NCBI GenBank assembly: GCA_050123375.1
Contig: JASFHF010000001.1
Location: forward strand, 34,475 to 98,474
Length of the DNA: 64,000 nucleotides
Origin: Gammaproteobacteria bacterium
GTDB taxonomy: Bacteria > Pseudomonadota > Gammaproteobacteria > UBA12402
Direction: 5' to 3'
Every line of letters begins with the position of its first letter. The stretch's first letter is position 1. The notes beneath the pieces are model-generated. The model had not been told where the DNA came from. It saw nothing but the letters and a program-made list of their open reading frames with translations, and ran no database searches. Below, piece by piece: positions 24,788-60,328 of this stretch. Both the position numbers and the translations under genes were made by a program.

Positions 24788-24857
24788 GCGGGACGCGGGC
24801 TTCACTCATTACAAGTGCCATGCTTGTTGCTTTGTAATGAGTGAAGCCCTGTCCCCC
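24788..24857 (+). repeat. PE-1 palindromic element, copy 1
   Basis: 'gcgggacgcgggcttcactcattacaag...gctttgtaatgagtgaagccctgtcccc'. Confidence 0.85.
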
Positions 24858-24934
24858 TGAGATGTTGTATAAAAACTTAGATATAAACAAACAAGGTTGG
24901 GTGTCCACCAAGCAAACTAAAAACGAGAACACTT

Positions 24935-26041
24935 ATGTCACGCAAAAAAATAACTATTACTTTAATTATTCTAGGCATATTAGCTTTAGCCGTGTGGTTC
25001 GGTTATCGGTATTTTATAATATTGATGATCGCCAAATATCGGGCAGCATATAAAATGCCTCCTACCGTAGTACAAATTCACAAAGCAACTAAACAACCAT
25101 GGCAGCCAACTATTGAAGCCATTGGATCATTATCCGCGGATGAAGGCGTAACCTTAACCACTGAAGTGGCTGGAAGAATTACCCAAATTTACTTTAAATC
25201 CGGAACTTACGTTAAAGCCAATACACCATTAGTTCAACTATATCCCAAAATTATTCAAGCAGAATTAAATGGAGCCAAAGCACAACTTGCGGTAGATAAA
25301 GTTAACCTGAAACGATACACTAAGCTATTCAAAAAAGGATTTTACGACAAAGCTAGTCTCGATAAAGCTAAAGCCACCGTTGAAGGCGATCAAGCCAAGG
25401 TTGACAATTATCAAGCACAGCTTGATCAACTAACTATTAAAGCGCCGTTTAGCGGACGGCTTGGTCTTCGACAAGTAAGTCTGGGAGATTTCCTAAATAC
25501 GGGTGATCCTATTGCAGATCTGCAAGCAGTTGATCCGATTCGTGTTGATTTTAATGTGCCGGAAATTTATTTAGGACAAATAAAACCCGGTTACAAAATA
25601 ACCATGACTTCACGTGCTGTAAAAGATAAAATATATGAAGGAACCATCTATGCATTTAATTCAAAAGTTGATCCAAATTCCCGTATGATTGGCGTGCGTG
25701 CGCACGTTCCGAATAAAAACTTTGCATTAGTTCCCGGCGCTTTTGTTGAAGTTACTGCATACATTGATAAAGCACAACAACCAATAATTATCCCACAAAC
25801 CGCTGTACTATATTCGCTCGAAGGAAGCTATGTTTATTTAATGAAAAATCACAAAGCAATTAAAACTCCAATAACTGTTGGACAAAAATTAGATGATAAC
25901 CGTATTATTGTGGTAAAAGGTTTACAAGCTGGTGATCCAATAATTGTTGGCGGTCAGGAAAAATTACATGACAATGATACGGTAATCACACAGGACGAAT
26001 ACGAAAAACAACAAAAAACTACGGAGAAGACTAAGAAATAA
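24935..26041 (+). CDS. RND efflux periplasmic adaptor (membrane fusion protein)
   Basis: It has a biotinyl-lipoyl-like fold and coiled coil, and it lies immediately upstream of the RND pump. Confidence 0.85.
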   Translation: MSRKKITITLIILGILALAVWFGYRYFIILMIAKYRAAYKMPPTVVQIHKATKQPWQPTIEAIGSLSADEGVTLTTEVAGRITQIYFKSGTYVKANTPLVQLYPKIIQAELNGAKAQLAVDKVNLKRYTKLFKKGFYDKASLDKAKATVEGDQAKVDNYQAQLDQLTIKAPFSGRLGLRQVSLGDFLNTGDPIADLQAVDPIRVDFNVPEIYLGQIKPGYKITMTSRAVKDKIYEGTIYAFNSKVDPNSRMIGVRAHVPNKNFALVPGAFVEVTAYIDKAQQPIIIPQTAVLYSLEGSYVYLMKNHKAIKTPITVGQKLDDNRIIVVKGLQAGDPIIVGGQEKLHDNDTVITQDEYEKQQKTTEKTKK

Positions 26042-26271
26042 ATGTAGGCGGGACGCGAGCTTCACATAATTACAACAGCCATGTTTGTTGCTTTGTAATC
26101 ATGTGAAGCTCCGTCCTTCAAAGAAATAAATAAAAAACTAACAAACTAAGAAATAAATGTAGGCGGGACGCGAGCTTCACATAATTACAACAGCCATGTT
26201 TGTTGCTTTGTAATCATGTGAAGCTCCGTCCTTCAAAGAAATAAATAAAAAACTAACAAACTAAGAAATAA
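26042..26271 (+). repeat. tandem duplication (2 x 115 bp), each unit containing a PE-1 palindrome (26048-26116 and 26163-26231)
   Basis: Units 26042-26156 and 26157-26271 are identical. The junction motif 'ctaagaaataa' is also the 3' end of the adaptor gene. Confidence 0.9.
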
Positions 26272-26273
26272 TT

Positions 26274-58085: not shown

Positions 58086-59181
58086 TTACAAACAACGACG
58101 TTCAATCTGGCAAACTCTGCATCTTGATTTGCCGCTATTACTTCTGCTTTTAACTATTACTATAATTGGATTTTTTATTTTATATAGCGCCAGCAATCAA
58201 CAGTTCGGCATGATAGTTCAAGAAATTATTCACATTGGACTTGCCCTGATATTGATGACTCTTATCGCACAATTACCTCCATATATCTATGAACGCTGGA
58301 CTCCGTGGATTTACAGTATTGGTATTTTTTTGCTGTTTGCTGTTTTGATCATTGGACACATTGGCAAAGGCGCGCAACGCTGGCTTAATCTTGGTTTACT
58401 ACACCTACAACCTTCTGAGATAATGCAGCTTGCTATTCCAATGATGCTGGCATGGTACTACAAAAACCGTCATTTACCGCCAAAAATAAAAGATATTGCG
58501 GTTTCCGCCGCAATCATTCTGGTACCTGTAATTCTAACTGCTAAAGAACCTGATCTAAGCACTGCAATTACCTTAACCATCAGCGGAGCCTGCGTATTGC
58601 TATTTGCCGGAATTAGCTGGGGTTTAATCACTGGACTATTCAGCCTTGCCATAATATCCATTCCTCTTCTATGGCATTTTATGCATAATTATCAACGACA
58701 ACGCATTTTAGTTTTTCTTAACCCAGAACGTGACCCGCTTGGCAGCGGTTATCATATAATCCAATCTAAAATTGCTATAGGTTCCGGCGGTTTTTTTGGC
58801 AAAGGATGGTTAATGGGCACACAATCACATCTTCATTTTTTGCCAGAACACGCAACTGACTTTATTTTTGCAGTTGGAGCAGAAGAATTTGGGCTGTTTG
58901 GCAGTTTAATACTACTAACAATTTATGTGTTAATTACCGCACGTTGTATATACATCGCAAACCACGCTCAAGACACCTATACACGGCTATTAGCCGCCAG
59001 TTTAAGCCTAATGTTCTTTTTATCAATCTTCATCAATATTGGGATGGTTACCGGAATTCTGCCAGCAGCAGGATTGCCTTTACCTTTAATTAGCTATGGC
59101 GGATCATCGATGATAGCATTTATGGCTGGTTTTGGTATACTAATGTCTATACATGGACATAAAAAACTACTAAGGAAATAA
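58057..59181 (+). CDS. rodA: rod shape-determining protein RodA (SEDS glycosyltransferase)
   Basis: FtsW/RodA family. 'SIWQTLHLDLPLLLLLL' parallels the E. coli RodA N-terminus. The start could instead be the internal Met at 58069. Confidence 0.85.
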   Translation: MENQMQLLNNYKQRRSIWQTLHLDLPLLLLLLTITIIGFFILYSASNQQFGMIVQEIIHIGLALILMTLIAQLPPYIYERWTPWIYSIGIFLLFAVLIIGHIGKGAQRWLNLGLLHLQPSEIMQLAIPMMLAWYYKNRHLPPKIKDIAVSAAIILVPVILTAKEPDLSTAITLTISGACVLLFAGISWGLITGLFSLAIISIPLLWHFMHNYQRQRILVFLNPERDPLGSGYHIIQSKIAIGSGGFFGKGWLMGTQSHLHFLPEHATDFIFAVGAEEFGLFGSLILLTIYVLITARCIYIANHAQDTYTRLLAASLSLMFFLSIFINIGMVTGILPAAGLPLPLISYGGSSMIAFMAGFGILMSIHGHKKLLRK

Positions 59182-59184
59182 ATT

Positions 59185-60306
59185 GTGCGGACAACCATCA
59201 AGATATTGGTAAAATTTAATTTAGCAATACTTGCTTGTTGTGTCATTGCGGTATCCGGCTGCGCCCAATCACAAAAAAAACCACCAAAAACGAAAAAATC
59301 AATCGCAATCAAGACTCAACCACTATATCAACAAAAAGAAGTAAAAAAATTTATTGATGAGATGGTAAAACAACACGATTTTAAACGCGCACAACTTATA
59401 AAATTATTCAAACAAGTGCAAATTAAACAACAAATTCTAAACAAAATTAAACATCCTTATGAAGAAGTTCCATGGAACGAATACCAACAACATTTTATCA
59501 CACAACAACGTATTGATGGCGGAGTTAAGTTTTGGCATAAATATGCCGCGACTTTAAAACGCGCATATCTTGAATTCGGAATACCACCAAGCATCATCGT
59601 AGCGATTATTGGAGTAGAAAGTAAATATGGCAAAAAAACCGGAGAATTCAAAGTAATTAACGCGTTATCAACTATTGGTTTTAAATATCCGGAACGCGCT
59701 GAATATTTCAAAAAAGAATTAGCTCAATTTTTATTATTCTGCCGCGAAAATAAAATCAATCCATTAAAAGTTTATGGATCATACGCAGGCGCCATTGGAC
59801 AACCACAATTTATGCCAAGCAATGTCCGCGCTTACGCAGTTGATTTTGATAAATCTGGAAAAATCGATTTAATTAATGACGCAAAAGATTCTATTGGCAG
59901 CATCGCTAATTTTTTCCAAGCACATGGCTGGCAAGAAGACAGCAGTATTGCGTTAAAAGCAAAATTCACCAATCACTTATCTGCAAAAAATTTAACTAAA
60001 TTCTTAACGCAGCGAGAACCAAAATTTACTTTAGCACAATTGGCCAAATATAATATTGAACCTGTCGTTACTATCCCATCAAATACATTAGCCAACGTAA
60101 TTAAACTGCAAGGAAAAAATAATCCACTATATTGGCTGGGATTTCATAATATGTATGTTATCATGACTTATAATACGAACATTCAATATGCAATGGCAGT
60201 CTATCAATTAAGCCAGGAAATTAAAAAAGCATATTTGCAATCATTAAAGACAAGAATTGGGAACGGAGCTTTACATAATCACAAAGCAACAAACAAAGCA
60301 TTGTAA
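59185..60306 (+). CDS. mltB: lytic murein transglycosylase, MltB family lipoprotein (paralog 2); the C-terminal ~13 aa are encoded by a PE-1 element
   Basis: It has a lipobox 'AVSGC' and 'AIIGVESKYG'. The rodA-mltB-rlpA order matches Pseudomonas-type synteny. Confidence 0.8.
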   Translation: MRTTIKILVKFNLAILACCVIAVSGCAQSQKKPPKTKKSIAIKTQPLYQQKEVKKFIDEMVKQHDFKRAQLIKLFKQVQIKQQILNKIKHPYEEVPWNEYQQHFITQQRIDGGVKFWHKYAATLKRAYLEFGIPPSIIVAIIGVESKYGKKTGEFKVINALSTIGFKYPERAEYFKKELAQFLLFCRENKINPLKVYGSYAGAIGQPQFMPSNVRAYAVDFDKSGKIDLINDAKDSIGSIANFFQAHGWQEDSSIALKAKFTNHLSAKNLTKFLTQREPKFTLAQLAKYNIEPVVTIPSNTLANVIKLQGKNNPLYWLGFHNMYVIMTYNTNIQYAMAVYQLSQEIKKAYLQSLKTRIGNGALHNHKATNKAL

Positions 60307-60328
60307 TTATGTAAAGCTCACGTCCCGC
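60259..60328 (-). repeat. PE-1 palindromic element, copy 9 (reverse orientation)
   Basis: 'gggaacggagctttacataatcacaaagcaacaaacaaagcattgtaattatgtaaagctcacgtcccgc'. Confidence 0.85.

What the first reader, a model, noticed from the sequence alone, without database searches (positions are those of the whole stretch)
24788..60328. PE-1: a ~70-bp palindromic element with 9 full copies in 64 kb, decorating the rpo/rpl operon and sometimes co-translated
The consensus is GCGGGACG(C/T)GAGCTTTACATAATTACAAGGCC-N-TTGTTGCTTTGTAATCATGTAAAGCTCCGTCCC, with two ~28-nt imperfectly complementary arms. Full copies lie at 24788, 26048, 26163, 30600, 35067, 39317, 39825, 42127, 53821 and 60259, with half-fragments at 35171, 39904 and 42074. 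They occur in both orientations. They occupy nearly every intergenic gap of the hfq-rpoC-rpoB-rplL-rplJ...rplK-nusG array, which is highly expressed. They may therefore act as transcript-stabilising or processing hairpins, as REP elements do. Copy 9 encodes the last ~13 residues (...GNGALHNHKATNKAL) and the stop of MltB paralog 2. Copy 6 gives rplL a spurious N-terminal extension in the track. Many copies share the flanking motif 'CTGAGATG'.
Basis: seen in the sequence. Interest (0 to 1): 0.55.

Follow-up and report, generated by a model that had tools for sequence, protein, structure and literature searches.

The report
Mobile 70-base hairpin repeat family
This is a real family of about 70-base hairpin-forming DNA repeats that has recently spread into the short gaps between essential genes of an uncultured Legionella-like bacterium; it is a new example of a well-known kind of small selfish bacterial repeat, not a new kind of system.

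Summary
The window holds exactly ten full copies of a 67-70 nt hairpin, PE-1, where none is expected by chance, plus three arm fragments. It is a dispersed family: at least 30 copies lie on 21 contigs of a different genome (MAG JASFHH01, which carries Dot/Icm genes), and one more lies in a close relative. Every copy folds into a stem of about 27 bp. Thirteen of 27 pairs show compensatory changes, while the apical 7 bp and the 12-nt loop never vary. Close relatives (RpoB 95-97% identical) have empty sites of 10-30 nt where the window has PE-1 between rpoB and rpoC, between rplJ and rplL, and at the mltB end. PE-1 is therefore mobile and recently active. New copies often sit inside old ones, which explains the half-fragments. 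No target-site duplication, no transposase next to any copy and no orientation bias were found, and PE-1 is not an intrinsic terminator. RAYT genes exist in relatives but are flanked by a different, canonical GTAG REP. Verdict: a new sequence family of REP/MITE-like palindromic elements. Its mobiliser is unknown and its effects on mRNA are inferred, not shown.

The parts
24788..24883 (+). PE-1 copy 1. Hairpin 24790-24856 (variant arm CACTCATTAC/GTAATGAGTG) plus 3' tail CCTGAGATGTTGTATAAAAACTTAGATA. It lies 10 nt after the degP stop and upstream of the membrane-fusion-protein gene.
26048..26117 (+). PE-1 copy 2. It lies 8 nt after the stop of the membrane-fusion-protein gene and is the first unit of a 115-nt tandem duplication (26005-26119 / 26120-26234).
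26163..26232 (+). PE-1 copy 3, the second unit of the tandem duplication, 40 nt upstream of acrB.
30600..30668 (+). PE-1 copy 4, between rpoC (stop at 30690) and hfq (30247-30465). It is the only copy shared with relative L024 (12693-12781). There it keeps the same 5' flank and arm variant, has lost one paired G/C, and carries a different 3' tail.
35067..35134 (+). PE-1 copy 5 in the rpoB|rpoC spacer. The spacer is 166 nt here and 10-18 nt in relatives L025 and L024, so this is a lineage-specific insertion.
35171..35188 (-). Terminal fragment (AGCTCACGTCCCGCCTAG) of a second, inverted PE-1 copy inside the same inserted block.
39317..39385 (+). PE-1 copy 6 (unit ATAGCATTG-hairpin-CAATTCT) in the rplL|rpoB spacer. 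It sits where relatives carry unrelated 18-19 bp hairpins.
39825..39891 (-). PE-1 copy 7 in the rplJ|rplL spacer (167 nt here, 26-30 nt in L025 and L026; L024 has a different palindrome at the same site). The ATG in its CTGAGATG tail starts the spurious 15-residue RplL extension. The true rplL is 39399-39773.
39903..39929 (+). Orphan 3' arm of an older, oppositely oriented PE-1 copy next to copy 7.
42127..42195 (-). PE-1 copy 8 in the rplK|nusG spacer, inserted into the apical region of an older, decayed copy.
42078..42106 (+). One arm of the older, decayed copy split by copy 8.
42208..42233 (+). The other arm of the older, decayed copy split by copy 8.
53821..53916 (+). PE-1 copy 9 plus 3' tail CCTGAGAACTGTATAAAAACTGAGATA, between fxsA and htpG.
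60252..60338 (-). PE-1 copy 10 (unit AATAGCATTG-hairpin-CAATTCT), inserted at the mltB (59185-60306) / rlpA (60350-61105) junction. It encodes the MltB residues RIGNGALHNHKATNKAL and the stop codon. The orthologous site in L028 is empty and mltB and rlpA overlap there by 4 nt.

Best explanation
PE-1 is a non-autonomous mobile DNA element. Each unit is a 67-70 nt imperfect palindrome, often with a short conserved head ((G)TAG-like, or ATAGCATTG) and one of three 3' tails. It spreads within a lineage of uncultured, Legionellales-like gammaproteobacteria and lands in the short spacers downstream of genes, often inside or beside earlier copies.

What is shown: dispersal in two or more genomes, lineage-specific insertions opposite empty sites, nesting, and maintained stem pairing with an invariant apical stem-loop.

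What is inferred:
- Spread depends on the folded hairpin rather than on double-stranded terminal repeats. The apical ATTACAA/TTGTAAT stem and the loop would be the sequence-specific recognition site, and the lower stem would be needed only as structure. This points to a single-strand hairpin-processing enzyme acting in trans (HUH/Y1-type or similar), consistent with the absence of target duplications. I put this step at about 0.4.
- Once transcribed, each copy forms a 27-bp RNA stem in either orientation. Such a stem should act as an RNase III substrate or as a 3' protective hairpin inside the rpl/rpo and other operons. At least the rplL|rpoB copy has probably taken over the role of the native spacer hairpin. 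I put this step at about 0.5.
- Effects on proteins (the MltB tail, the RplL extension) are by-products.

The overall confidence of 0.7 refers to the core claim (a mobile, non-autonomous, hairpin-forming repeat family); the two inferred steps carry the lower figures given above.
For: Not chance:
- 0 matches are expected and 10 full copies are found.

Dispersed:
- 26 exact loop-pattern matches lie on 21 contigs of MAG JASFHH01. The covariance model finds further copies there and one in L024.

Mobile and recent:
- RpoB is 95-97% identical between the window and L024/L025.
- The rpoB|rpoC spacer is 166 nt with PE-1 in the window and 10-18 nt in the relatives.
- The rplJ|rplL spacer is 167 nt in the window and 26-30 nt in L025 and L026.
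- The mltB|rlpA junction is filled in the window and is a 4-nt gene overlap in L028.
- L024 has an unrelated palindrome at the very same rplJ|rplL site.

Nesting:
- Split arms flank new copies in the window and in the MAG.

Structure matters:
- 95.6% of cells are paired, and 13 of 27 pairs show double compensatory changes.
- 0 of 500 shuffles reach the observed values, and slid controls give 40-45% pairing.
- The orthologous copies (window 30600 and L024) differ by a paired G/C deletion that keeps the stem.

Sequence-specific core:
- The apical 7 bp and the loop are invariant in both genomes.
- A related apical hairpin occurs in another repeat family.

Copy-propagated imperfections:
- The same A·C mismatch occurs in 19 of 37 copies and the same 1-nt bulge in 19 of 37, in both genomes.

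Genomic position typical of REP-like repeats:
- About 33 of 41 copies lie between co-directional genes, 4 between convergent genes and at most 1-2 between divergent genes. Most sit within 3-35 nt of a stop codon.

No single functional RNA strand:
- Orientation relative to transcription is 20 forward to 12-13 reverse, and hairpin stability is equal on both strands (p = 0.28).

A hairpin is positionally conserved in the rplL|rpoB spacer:
- All four genomes have one, with three unrelated sequences.
Against: - No mobilising enzyme has been identified.
- No transposase lies in the 64-kb window, and no multi-copy protein gene lies in about 180 kb of PE-1-bearing MAG loci.
- The only HUH enzymes found (RAYTs) are flanked by another REP.
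- The exact element ends are blurred by three alternative tails and by nesting, so the absence of target duplications rests on about three clean junctions.
- The covariation alignment was fitted to the model, although the compensatory changes are also visible in the plain MAFFT alignment.
- There are no expression data, so the RNA effects are pure inference.
- A true genome-wide copy number is not known for either genome.
Confidence: 0.7

Rival explanations
1. PE-1 is a REP/REPIN in the strict sense: it is mobilised by a REP-associated tyrosine transposase (RAYT) of the host, which recognises a GTAG head and the foot of the hairpin.
For: - A RAYT (NCBIfam REP_Tyr_transpos, 185.9 bits against a cut-off of 80) is present in the PE-1-rich MAG.
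- Homologs 91% and 67% identical to it occur in the window's own metagenome and in the sample that holds L024.
- 10 of 37 PE-1 copies carry GTAG, and 16 of 37 carry TAG, directly 5' of a G/C-rich stem foot, as REPs do.
- No target duplications were seen, the positions are extragenic and downstream of genes, and the copies cluster or nest.
Against: - Both RAYT loci that could be read (L022, L027) are flanked by a different, canonical REP (GTAG-CCCGTAT...ATACGGG), not by PE-1. The nearest PE-1 copy is 4 kb away in L022, and L027 has none.
- GTAG is conserved in 27% of PE-1 copies, against more than 90% in described GTAG REP families.
- The stem is 27 bp against 5-13 bp in those families, and the length is 67-70 nt against 20-40 nt (PMC3733652).
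Confidence: 0.2
2. PE-1 is a classical MITE: an internally deleted insertion sequence whose two arms are the terminal inverted repeats, bound as double-stranded DNA by a DDE transposase encoded elsewhere in the genome.
For: - The size is in range, the two arms are about 27 nt and inverted, and PE-1 is dispersed and inserts into spacers and gene ends. This resembles Correia elements, RPE and the Coxiella QMITEs (PMC5896051).
- The lineage is rich in other palindromic repeat families.
Against: - No target-site duplication is seen at the clean filled/empty junctions.
- The outer arm positions are not conserved as sequence but co-vary, with all four base pairs seen at one position. That is not expected for repeats read by one transposase.
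- The invariant part is the loop and apex, not the termini.
- No parent IS and no repeated protein gene was seen in about 300 kb.
Confidence: 0.2
3. PE-1 is primarily a host-selected RNA element. It would act as an operon-internal processing site, an mRNA-stabilising element or an attenuator hairpin, or as a protein-binding stem-loop, and it would be kept at each site for that function.
For: - Stem pairing is maintained by compensatory changes, and the loop is invariant across two genomes.
- The orthologous copy downstream of rpoC is at least as conserved as its flanks and kept its pairing through a paired deletion.
- A long hairpin is positionally conserved in the rplL|rpoB spacer of all four relatives, and PE-1 fills that position here.
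- From my own knowledge, not tested here: in E. coli that spacer holds an attenuator and an RNase III site.
Against: - The copies lie in both orientations relative to transcription (20:12-13), so the conserved loop would read UGUUUGUUG in some mRNAs and CAACAAACA in others.
- Close relatives do without PE-1 at most sites.
- There is no U-tract, so no copy scores as an intrinsic terminator.
- No Rfam family matches, only sub-threshold generic hairpin (miRNA-precursor) hits.
- Decayed and split copies are tolerated.
Confidence: 0.15
4. The copies are a local duplication artefact or a chance or assembly artefact of this contig.
For: Only copies 2 and 3 are a local tandem duplication of 115 nt.
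Against: - The family occurs on 21 contigs of an independent assembly and in a third assembly.
- The flanks of the copies are unrelated.
- The same gene arrangement, including the 139-aa rplL call, is on record for a 105-kb JGI contig.
Confidence: 0.01

Closest known systems
REP / REPIN elements and their RAYT (TnpA-REP) transposases (GTAG-tagged REPs; Di Nocera et al. 2013, PMC3733652; Corneloup et al. 2021, PMC8266576)
   Same: - Both are high-copy extragenic imperfect palindromes with a bulge or mismatch and a G/C-rich stem foot, sometimes preceded by GTAG.
- Both lie between co-directional or convergent genes, just after stop codons.
- Both show sub-families with complementary stem changes.
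- Both form clusters and mosaics.
- Neither makes target duplications.
- RAYT genes are present in the same lineage.
   Different: - PE-1 is two to three times longer (67-70 nt) and has a 27-bp stem against 5-13 bp.
- It has a 12-nt invariant loop.
- GTAG is present in only about a quarter of copies.
- The RAYT genes that could be read are flanked by another, canonical REP and not by PE-1.
Bacterial MITEs that form long hairpins: Neisseria Correia elements, Rickettsia palindromic elements (RPE), ERIC/IRU, and the Coxiella burnetii QMITE1/QMITE2 (PMC5896051)
   Same: - All are small, non-coding, palindromic and dispersed, and are inserted in transcribed spacers in both orientations.
- They occasionally overlap gene ends and add residues to proteins, as reported for QMITEs and RPEs.
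- The host is a relative of Coxiella and Legionella.
- Small QMITE2 copies are described as REP-like, without TIRs or direct repeats.
   Different: - PE-1 is shorter (about 70-100 nt, against 100-400).
- No TA or other target duplication was seen.
- The arms co-vary instead of being conserved.
- The apex and loop are the conserved part.
- Sequence relatedness to the QMITEs could not be tested because no QMITE sequence was available.
Subterminal hairpins of IS200/IS605-family elements and their protein-less derivatives (palindrome-associated transposable elements)
   Same: The hairpin structure, rather than double-stranded terminal repeats, would be the recognised feature. There is no target duplication, and the hairpins are imperfect, with a bulge.
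   Different: Those elements carry two different hairpins (left and right end) and a defined tetra- or pentanucleotide target. PE-1 is a single long hairpin, and the three clean junctions show no common target.

Membership tests
REP/REPIN (RAYT-associated) | Small palindrome of 20-40 nt with a stem of 5-13 bp (PMC3733652) | tested here: not met
   The hairpin is 67-70 nt, with a stem of about 27 bp and a loop of about 12 nt.
REP/REPIN (RAYT-associated) | Unpaired terminal GTAG tag conserved in more than 90% of members | tested here: not met
   GTAG occurs in 10 of 37 copies and TAG in 16 of 37. Other copies have ATTG, TTGAC, TAAAC and similar heads.
REP/REPIN (RAYT-associated) | The cognate RAYT gene is flanked by copies of the repeat (REPtron) | tested here: not met
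   The RAYT genes in L022 and L027 are flanked by GTAG-CCCGTAT..ATACGGG REPs. No PE-1 copy lies within 4 kb in L022 and none in L027. Only two RAYT loci could be read, so other RAYTs in these genomes are not excluded.
REP/REPIN (RAYT-associated) | Extragenic, mostly between co-directional or convergent genes and downstream of coding regions; many dispersed copies | tested here: met
   About 37 of 41 copies lie between tandem or convergent genes. The window has 10 copies in 64 kb, and the second genome has copies on 21 contigs.
MITE (DDE-transposase derived) | Terminal inverted repeats conserved as sequence | tested here: inconclusive
   The arms are inverted repeats, but the outer positions co-vary (A-T, T-A, C-G and G-C at one pair) rather than being conserved.
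MITE (DDE-transposase derived) | Target-site duplication flanking the element | tested here: not met
   None is visible at the mltB|rlpA, rplL|rpoB and rpoB|rpoC junctions when compared with empty or differently filled sites. At most there is an ambiguous 2-nt AG/CT.
MITE (DDE-transposase derived) | A related autonomous IS with the same ends in the genome | not testable with these tools
   None was seen in the window or in about 240 kb of loci.
Intrinsic (Rho-independent) terminator | G+C-rich hairpin with a short loop, followed by a U-tract | tested here: not met
   No PE-1 copy is among the terminator-like sites. The tails are CCTGAGATG, TCAAAGAA or CAATTCT.
Described structured RNA family (Rfam 15) | A match at or above a family's gathering score | tested here: not met
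   There are no hits at gathering thresholds on the whole window. Only sub-threshold miRNA-precursor-like hairpin matches appear at copy 8.

The most novel reading that the evidence does not exclude
PE-1 defines a distinct class of hairpin-dependent mobile elements. An invariant apical stem-loop (ATTACAA-loop-TTGTAAT) is read sequence-specifically by an as yet unidentified enzyme. That enzyme could be a RAYT acting outside its own REPtron or a new single-strand DNA transposase. The long stem below the apex is free to co-vary. The resulting 27-bp RNA stems have been co-opted as operon-internal processing or attenuation hairpins, and they replace the native hairpin in the rplL-rpoB spacer.
Probability: 0.15. 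Interest if true: 0.55.

Novelty: new member of a known kind. Interest (0 to 1): 0.35.

Why it matters
- PE-1 adds a well-characterised, recently active palindromic repeat family to a poorly known, uncultured Legionellales-like lineage.
- It comes with clean filled-versus-empty sites inside one of the most conserved operons in bacteria.
- It warns annotators: PE-1 creates a false N-terminal extension of RplL in a public gene call and rewrites the C-terminus of MltB.
- Sister lineages have unrelated palindromes in the same rpl/rpo spacers. That makes this a compact natural system for asking whether such hairpins are merely tolerated or are used, for example as an RNase III site or an attenuator.
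- The co-varying stem with an invariant loop gives a concrete substrate for testing which enzyme moves REP-like elements that are not flanking a RAYT.
- None of this changes current concepts. It is an instructive new example.

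Tried and rejected
- Two scans of metagenome contigs, one with a loop pattern and one with an arm pattern, found nothing. That collection evidently does not hold the source contig.
- One scan of viral contigs found nothing.
- Exact look-ups of the window's MltB and RlpA, and of P0241 (the 100% identical NCBI MAG protein), found no record. 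RplK showed that the source is a 105-kb contig of JGI sample 3300042731, but its DNA could not be retrieved.
- A full-text search for four PE-1 sub-sequences found no paper, and a search for REPIN + RAYT + Legionella found none.
- The Coxiella QMITE paper gives no sequence to compare.
- RNAalifold on the plain MAFFT alignment missed the middle of the stem because indels were misplaced. A hand-given structure and model-based realignment solved this.
- Automatic definition of element ends from folds was not informative. The ends were instead read from filled/empty comparisons.
- I first noted that hfq was absent. That was wrong, because the ORF list had an 80-aa cut-off, and I corrected it.
- L018 (a Bacteroidia MAG) is a chance match to the loop pattern and has no stem.
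- I rejected the terminator reading, the attC / gene-cassette and CRISPR-like readings (irregular spacing, housekeeping context), and an IHF site in the arm (a consensus mismatch, judged by eye).

Full report

Yes. Searching the two half-arms with up to three mismatches gives 15 and 8 matches where dinucleotide-preserving shuffles give none. A repeat finder recovers the family independently.

The three half-fragments are also real. Every copy folds into a single hairpin with a stem of about 27 bp and a loop of about 12 nt. The free energy is -29 to -52 kcal/mol and z is about -8 to -10. Stability is the same on either strand (paired test p = 0.28).

**2. Gene context**

Pfam and NCBIfam scans show only housekeeping genes in the window and no transposase. 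PE-1 copies sit at these positions:
- after degP;
- twice between a membrane-fusion-protein gene and acrB, as a 115-nt tandem duplication;
- between hfq and rpoC, rpoC and rpoB, rpoB and rplL, rplL and rplJ, and rplK and nusG;
- between fxsA and htpG;
- on the 3' end of the second mltB paralog.

I had first missed it because of an ORF length cut-off.

**3. A dispersed family, not a local duplication**

An exact pattern built on the loop (ATTACAA-N5-6-TGYTTGTTGCTTTGTAAT) was scanned over one genome per species of GTDB. It hit 26 places on 21 contigs of a single other genome, plus one chance hit without a stem in a Bacteroidia MAG. That genome is the MAG 'Gammaproteobacteria bacterium D0608M12metaG_sub_Bin_249' (JASFHH01).

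The loci from that MAG share no coding-sequence similarity with the window. The MAG encodes DotA, DotB (NCBIfam equivalog, above cut-off) and a DotC/TraI-family protein. The RAYT found in it has its best named relatives in Coxiella burnetii and Legionella. The hosts are therefore uncultured, Legionellales-like gammaproteobacteria.

The window itself is part of a 105-kb contig of JGI metagenome 3300042731. An identical MltB is recorded for an NCBI MAG with a 132-kb contig. Two scans of the metagenome collection and one of the viral collection found nothing. Rfam has no matching family, and the literature library holds none of four PE-1 sub-sequences.

**4. Anatomy**

I aligned 37 copies from three genomes to the model.
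- 95.6% of pair cells are standard pairs.
- 13 of 27 pairs show changes on both sides that keep the pair. One pair occurs as A-T, T-A, C-G and G-C.
- No shuffle out of 500 reaches any of the five observed measures, and sliding the partner columns drops pairing to 40-45%.

This alignment is fitted to the model, but the same compensations are plain in the unfitted MAFFT alignment. An example is GGGACGGAGCT...AGCTCCGTCCC against GGGCCGGGTCT...AGACCCGGCCC.

In contrast, the apical seven pairs (ATTACAA/TTGTAAT) and the loop are invariant in both genomes. Two imperfections recur in about half of the copies in both genomes: an A·C mismatch (19 of 37) and a one-base bulge (19 of 37). This is what copying from master elements would give.

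The unit is longer than the hairpin. The 5' side tends to (A/T)GTAGGC or ATAGCATTG. The 3' side falls into three classes: CCTGAGATG...AAAAACTGAGATA, TCAAAGAA..TAGCT.ATTAC, and CAATTCT.

**5. Mobility**

I used RplJ and MltB to find close relatives and fetched their DNA. RpoB is 96.8% identical to L024, 95.2% to L025 and 84.6% to L026.

| Site | Window | Relatives |
|---|---|---|
| rpoB\|rpoC spacer | 166 nt with PE-1 | 10-18 nt in L025 and L024 |
| rplJ\|rplL spacer | 167 nt with PE-1 | 26-30 nt in L025 and L026; L024 has an unrelated 26-bp-stem palindrome at exactly the same point |
| mltB\|rlpA junction | an 86-nt unit inserted | 4-nt gene overlap in L028 |

Only the copy downstream of rpoC is shared with L024. 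There it keeps the same 5' flank and the same rare arm and loop variants. It has lost one G and its paired C, and it carries a tail of a different class.

Several copies, in the window and in the MAG, are flanked by the separated arms of an older copy. At the three cleanest junctions I see no target-site duplication beyond an ambiguous dinucleotide, and no common target motif.

**6. Position and orientation**

With a crude ORF-based gene map, about 33 of 41 copies lie between co-directional genes, four between convergent genes and at most one or two between divergent genes. Most sit within 3-35 nt of the upstream stop codon. Orientation relative to transcription is 20 forward to 12-13 reverse, so there is no significant bias. 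No copy has a U-tract or scores as an intrinsic terminator.

**7. The RAYT question**

A motif search of all six frames found one HUH/Y1 protein in the MAG loci (L022:4626-5153). It is a REP-associated tyrosine transposase by NCBIfam (185.9 bits, cut-off 80). Homologs 91% and 67% identical to it occur in the window's own metagenome and in the sample that holds L024.

In both loci that could be read, the gene is bracketed by a different, canonical REP (GTAG-CCCGTAT-loop-ATACGGG). That REP occurs nowhere else in the 240 kb at hand. No PE-1 copy is adjacent.

Against the published description of GTAG REPs (20-40 nt; stems 5-13 bp, most of them 6-9 bp; tag conserved in more than 90% of members; RAYT flanked by the repeat; PMC3733652), PE-1 fails on size, on tag conservation (27%) and on RAYT flanking. 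It agrees on genomic position, sub-family structure and clustering. No multi-copy protein gene (a candidate IS) is present near the copies.

**8. Effects on proteins**

The closest MltB orthologs end ...S[LF]KK[IT]RKHKK. The window protein ends ...SLKT-RIGNGALHNHKATNKAL, and those last 17 residues and the stop codon are encoded by the inserted unit. The Pfam SLT_2 domain ends at residue 344, so the change is probably harmless.

The 139-aa RplL of the public gene call starts at the ATG of the CTGAGATG tail of copy 7. The true start is 15 codons downstream, at 39773, as in the relatives.

**9. How it most likely works**

Shown:
- PE-1 is dispersed in at least two genomes.
- It has lineage-specific insertions opposite empty sites.
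- Copies nest in one another.
- Pairing is maintained and the apical stem-loop is invariant.
- There is no orientation bias, no terminator features and no adjacent transposase.

Inferred:
- Propagation depends on the folded single strand. The apex and loop would be the sequence-specific recognition site and the lower stem would be needed only as structure. This, together with the lack of target duplications, fits a hairpin-processing enzyme acting in trans better than a transposase that reads double-stranded terminal repeats.
- In mRNA, a 27-bp stem is long enough to be an RNase III substrate or a 3' protective hairpin. This is established knowledge about such stems and was not tested here.

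One observation gives the second inference some substance. All four genomes have a long hairpin in the rplL|rpoB spacer, with three unrelated sequences, and PE-1 occupies that position in the window. From my own knowledge, the E. coli spacer holds an attenuator and an RNase III site.

**10. Comparison with what is known, and verdict**

PE-1 works like REP/REPIN elements and like hairpin-forming MITEs such as Correia, RPE, ERIC and the Coxiella QMITEs (PMC5896051). It is not a member of the RAYT-associated REPs on the features tested, and it lacks the target duplications of classical MITEs. It is best filed as a new sequence family within the known kind 'small interspersed palindromic non-autonomous elements'. 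Its mobiliser is unknown.

Interest is moderate to low for concepts. PE-1 is useful for annotation and as a clean natural case of hairpin turnover in the rpl/rpo operon.

Noticed in passing
window 4296-4419, 5298-5421, 61335-61457 (+) and 44927-45045 (-): A second palindromic repeat family of about 110-124 nt. Its termini co-vary (for example CAGGACTTACGTGAAAAG...CTTTTCACGTAAGTCCTG). The copy upstream of the MFS transporter gene is absent from the orthologous site in L028, so this family also inserts.
   Followed up: partly
window 43451-43478, 44789-44816, 44738-44765(-); L004, L006, L008, L010, L019, L021: A 28-nt hairpin, GGATCCCGCGGTCAAGCCGCGGGATGAC, flanks tuf and the tRNA genes. Five exact copies, and two that differ at two bases, occur in the JASFHH01 loci. 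It is a third repeat family shared by the two genomes.
   Followed up: partly
window 19856-20122 and 40667-40790: A large palindrome of about 270 nt (RNA fold -100 kcal/mol), with a related piece in the rplA|rplJ spacer. Its apical sub-hairpin (CATGATTTTACAAAAACAAACTGGTTGTAAAATCATG) resembles the PE-1 apex and gives weak hits (21-26 bits) to the PE-1 model.
   Followed up: partly
L024:3637-3747, 4126-4204, 13125-13200; L025:1858-1926; L026:2421-2523: Close relatives carry other long perfect hairpins (family GGTGTCAGA...TCTGACACC in L024 and L025, an unrelated one in L026) in the same rpl/rpo spacers. A hairpin in the rplL|rpoB spacer is positionally conserved, while its sequence turns over.
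   Followed up: partly
L022:2717-6233 and L027:4870-5600: REPtron-like loci: a RAYT gene bracketed by canonical GTAG-CCCGTAT..ATACGGG REPs. L022 has five REP copies, and two further copies of the gene's 3' end sequence (attgttcattcactt, attattcattcacca) next to REPs elsewhere in the cluster, which may be gene remnants. The same RAYT protein (P0121) occurs in the window's metagenome 3300042731.
   Followed up: partly
window 46373-53134 (-): A 2253-aa ORF in a stretch of 29-33% G+C with no Pfam match. The same ORF is called on the JGI contig. It may be a large surface or effector-like protein.
   Followed up: no
window 361-1140 (+): A TdeIII-type type II restriction endonuclease gene (Pfam RE_TdeIII, 1.3e-56) next to ndk. 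The ORF before it (14-358) has no Pfam match.
   Followed up: no
window 30247-30465 (-): The Hfq here is short (72 aa) and divergent. It scores just below the TIGR02383 cut-off (60.8 against 61.7 bits).
   Followed up: no
L009:3528-3617: In the MAG, a PE-1 copy overlaps the longest-ORF start of the exonuclease gene (dnaQ-like by eye, not tested) and would give it a spurious N-terminal extension (MLCLLLCNHVKPRPLKK...). This is the same annotation hazard as for rplL in the window.
   Followed up: no
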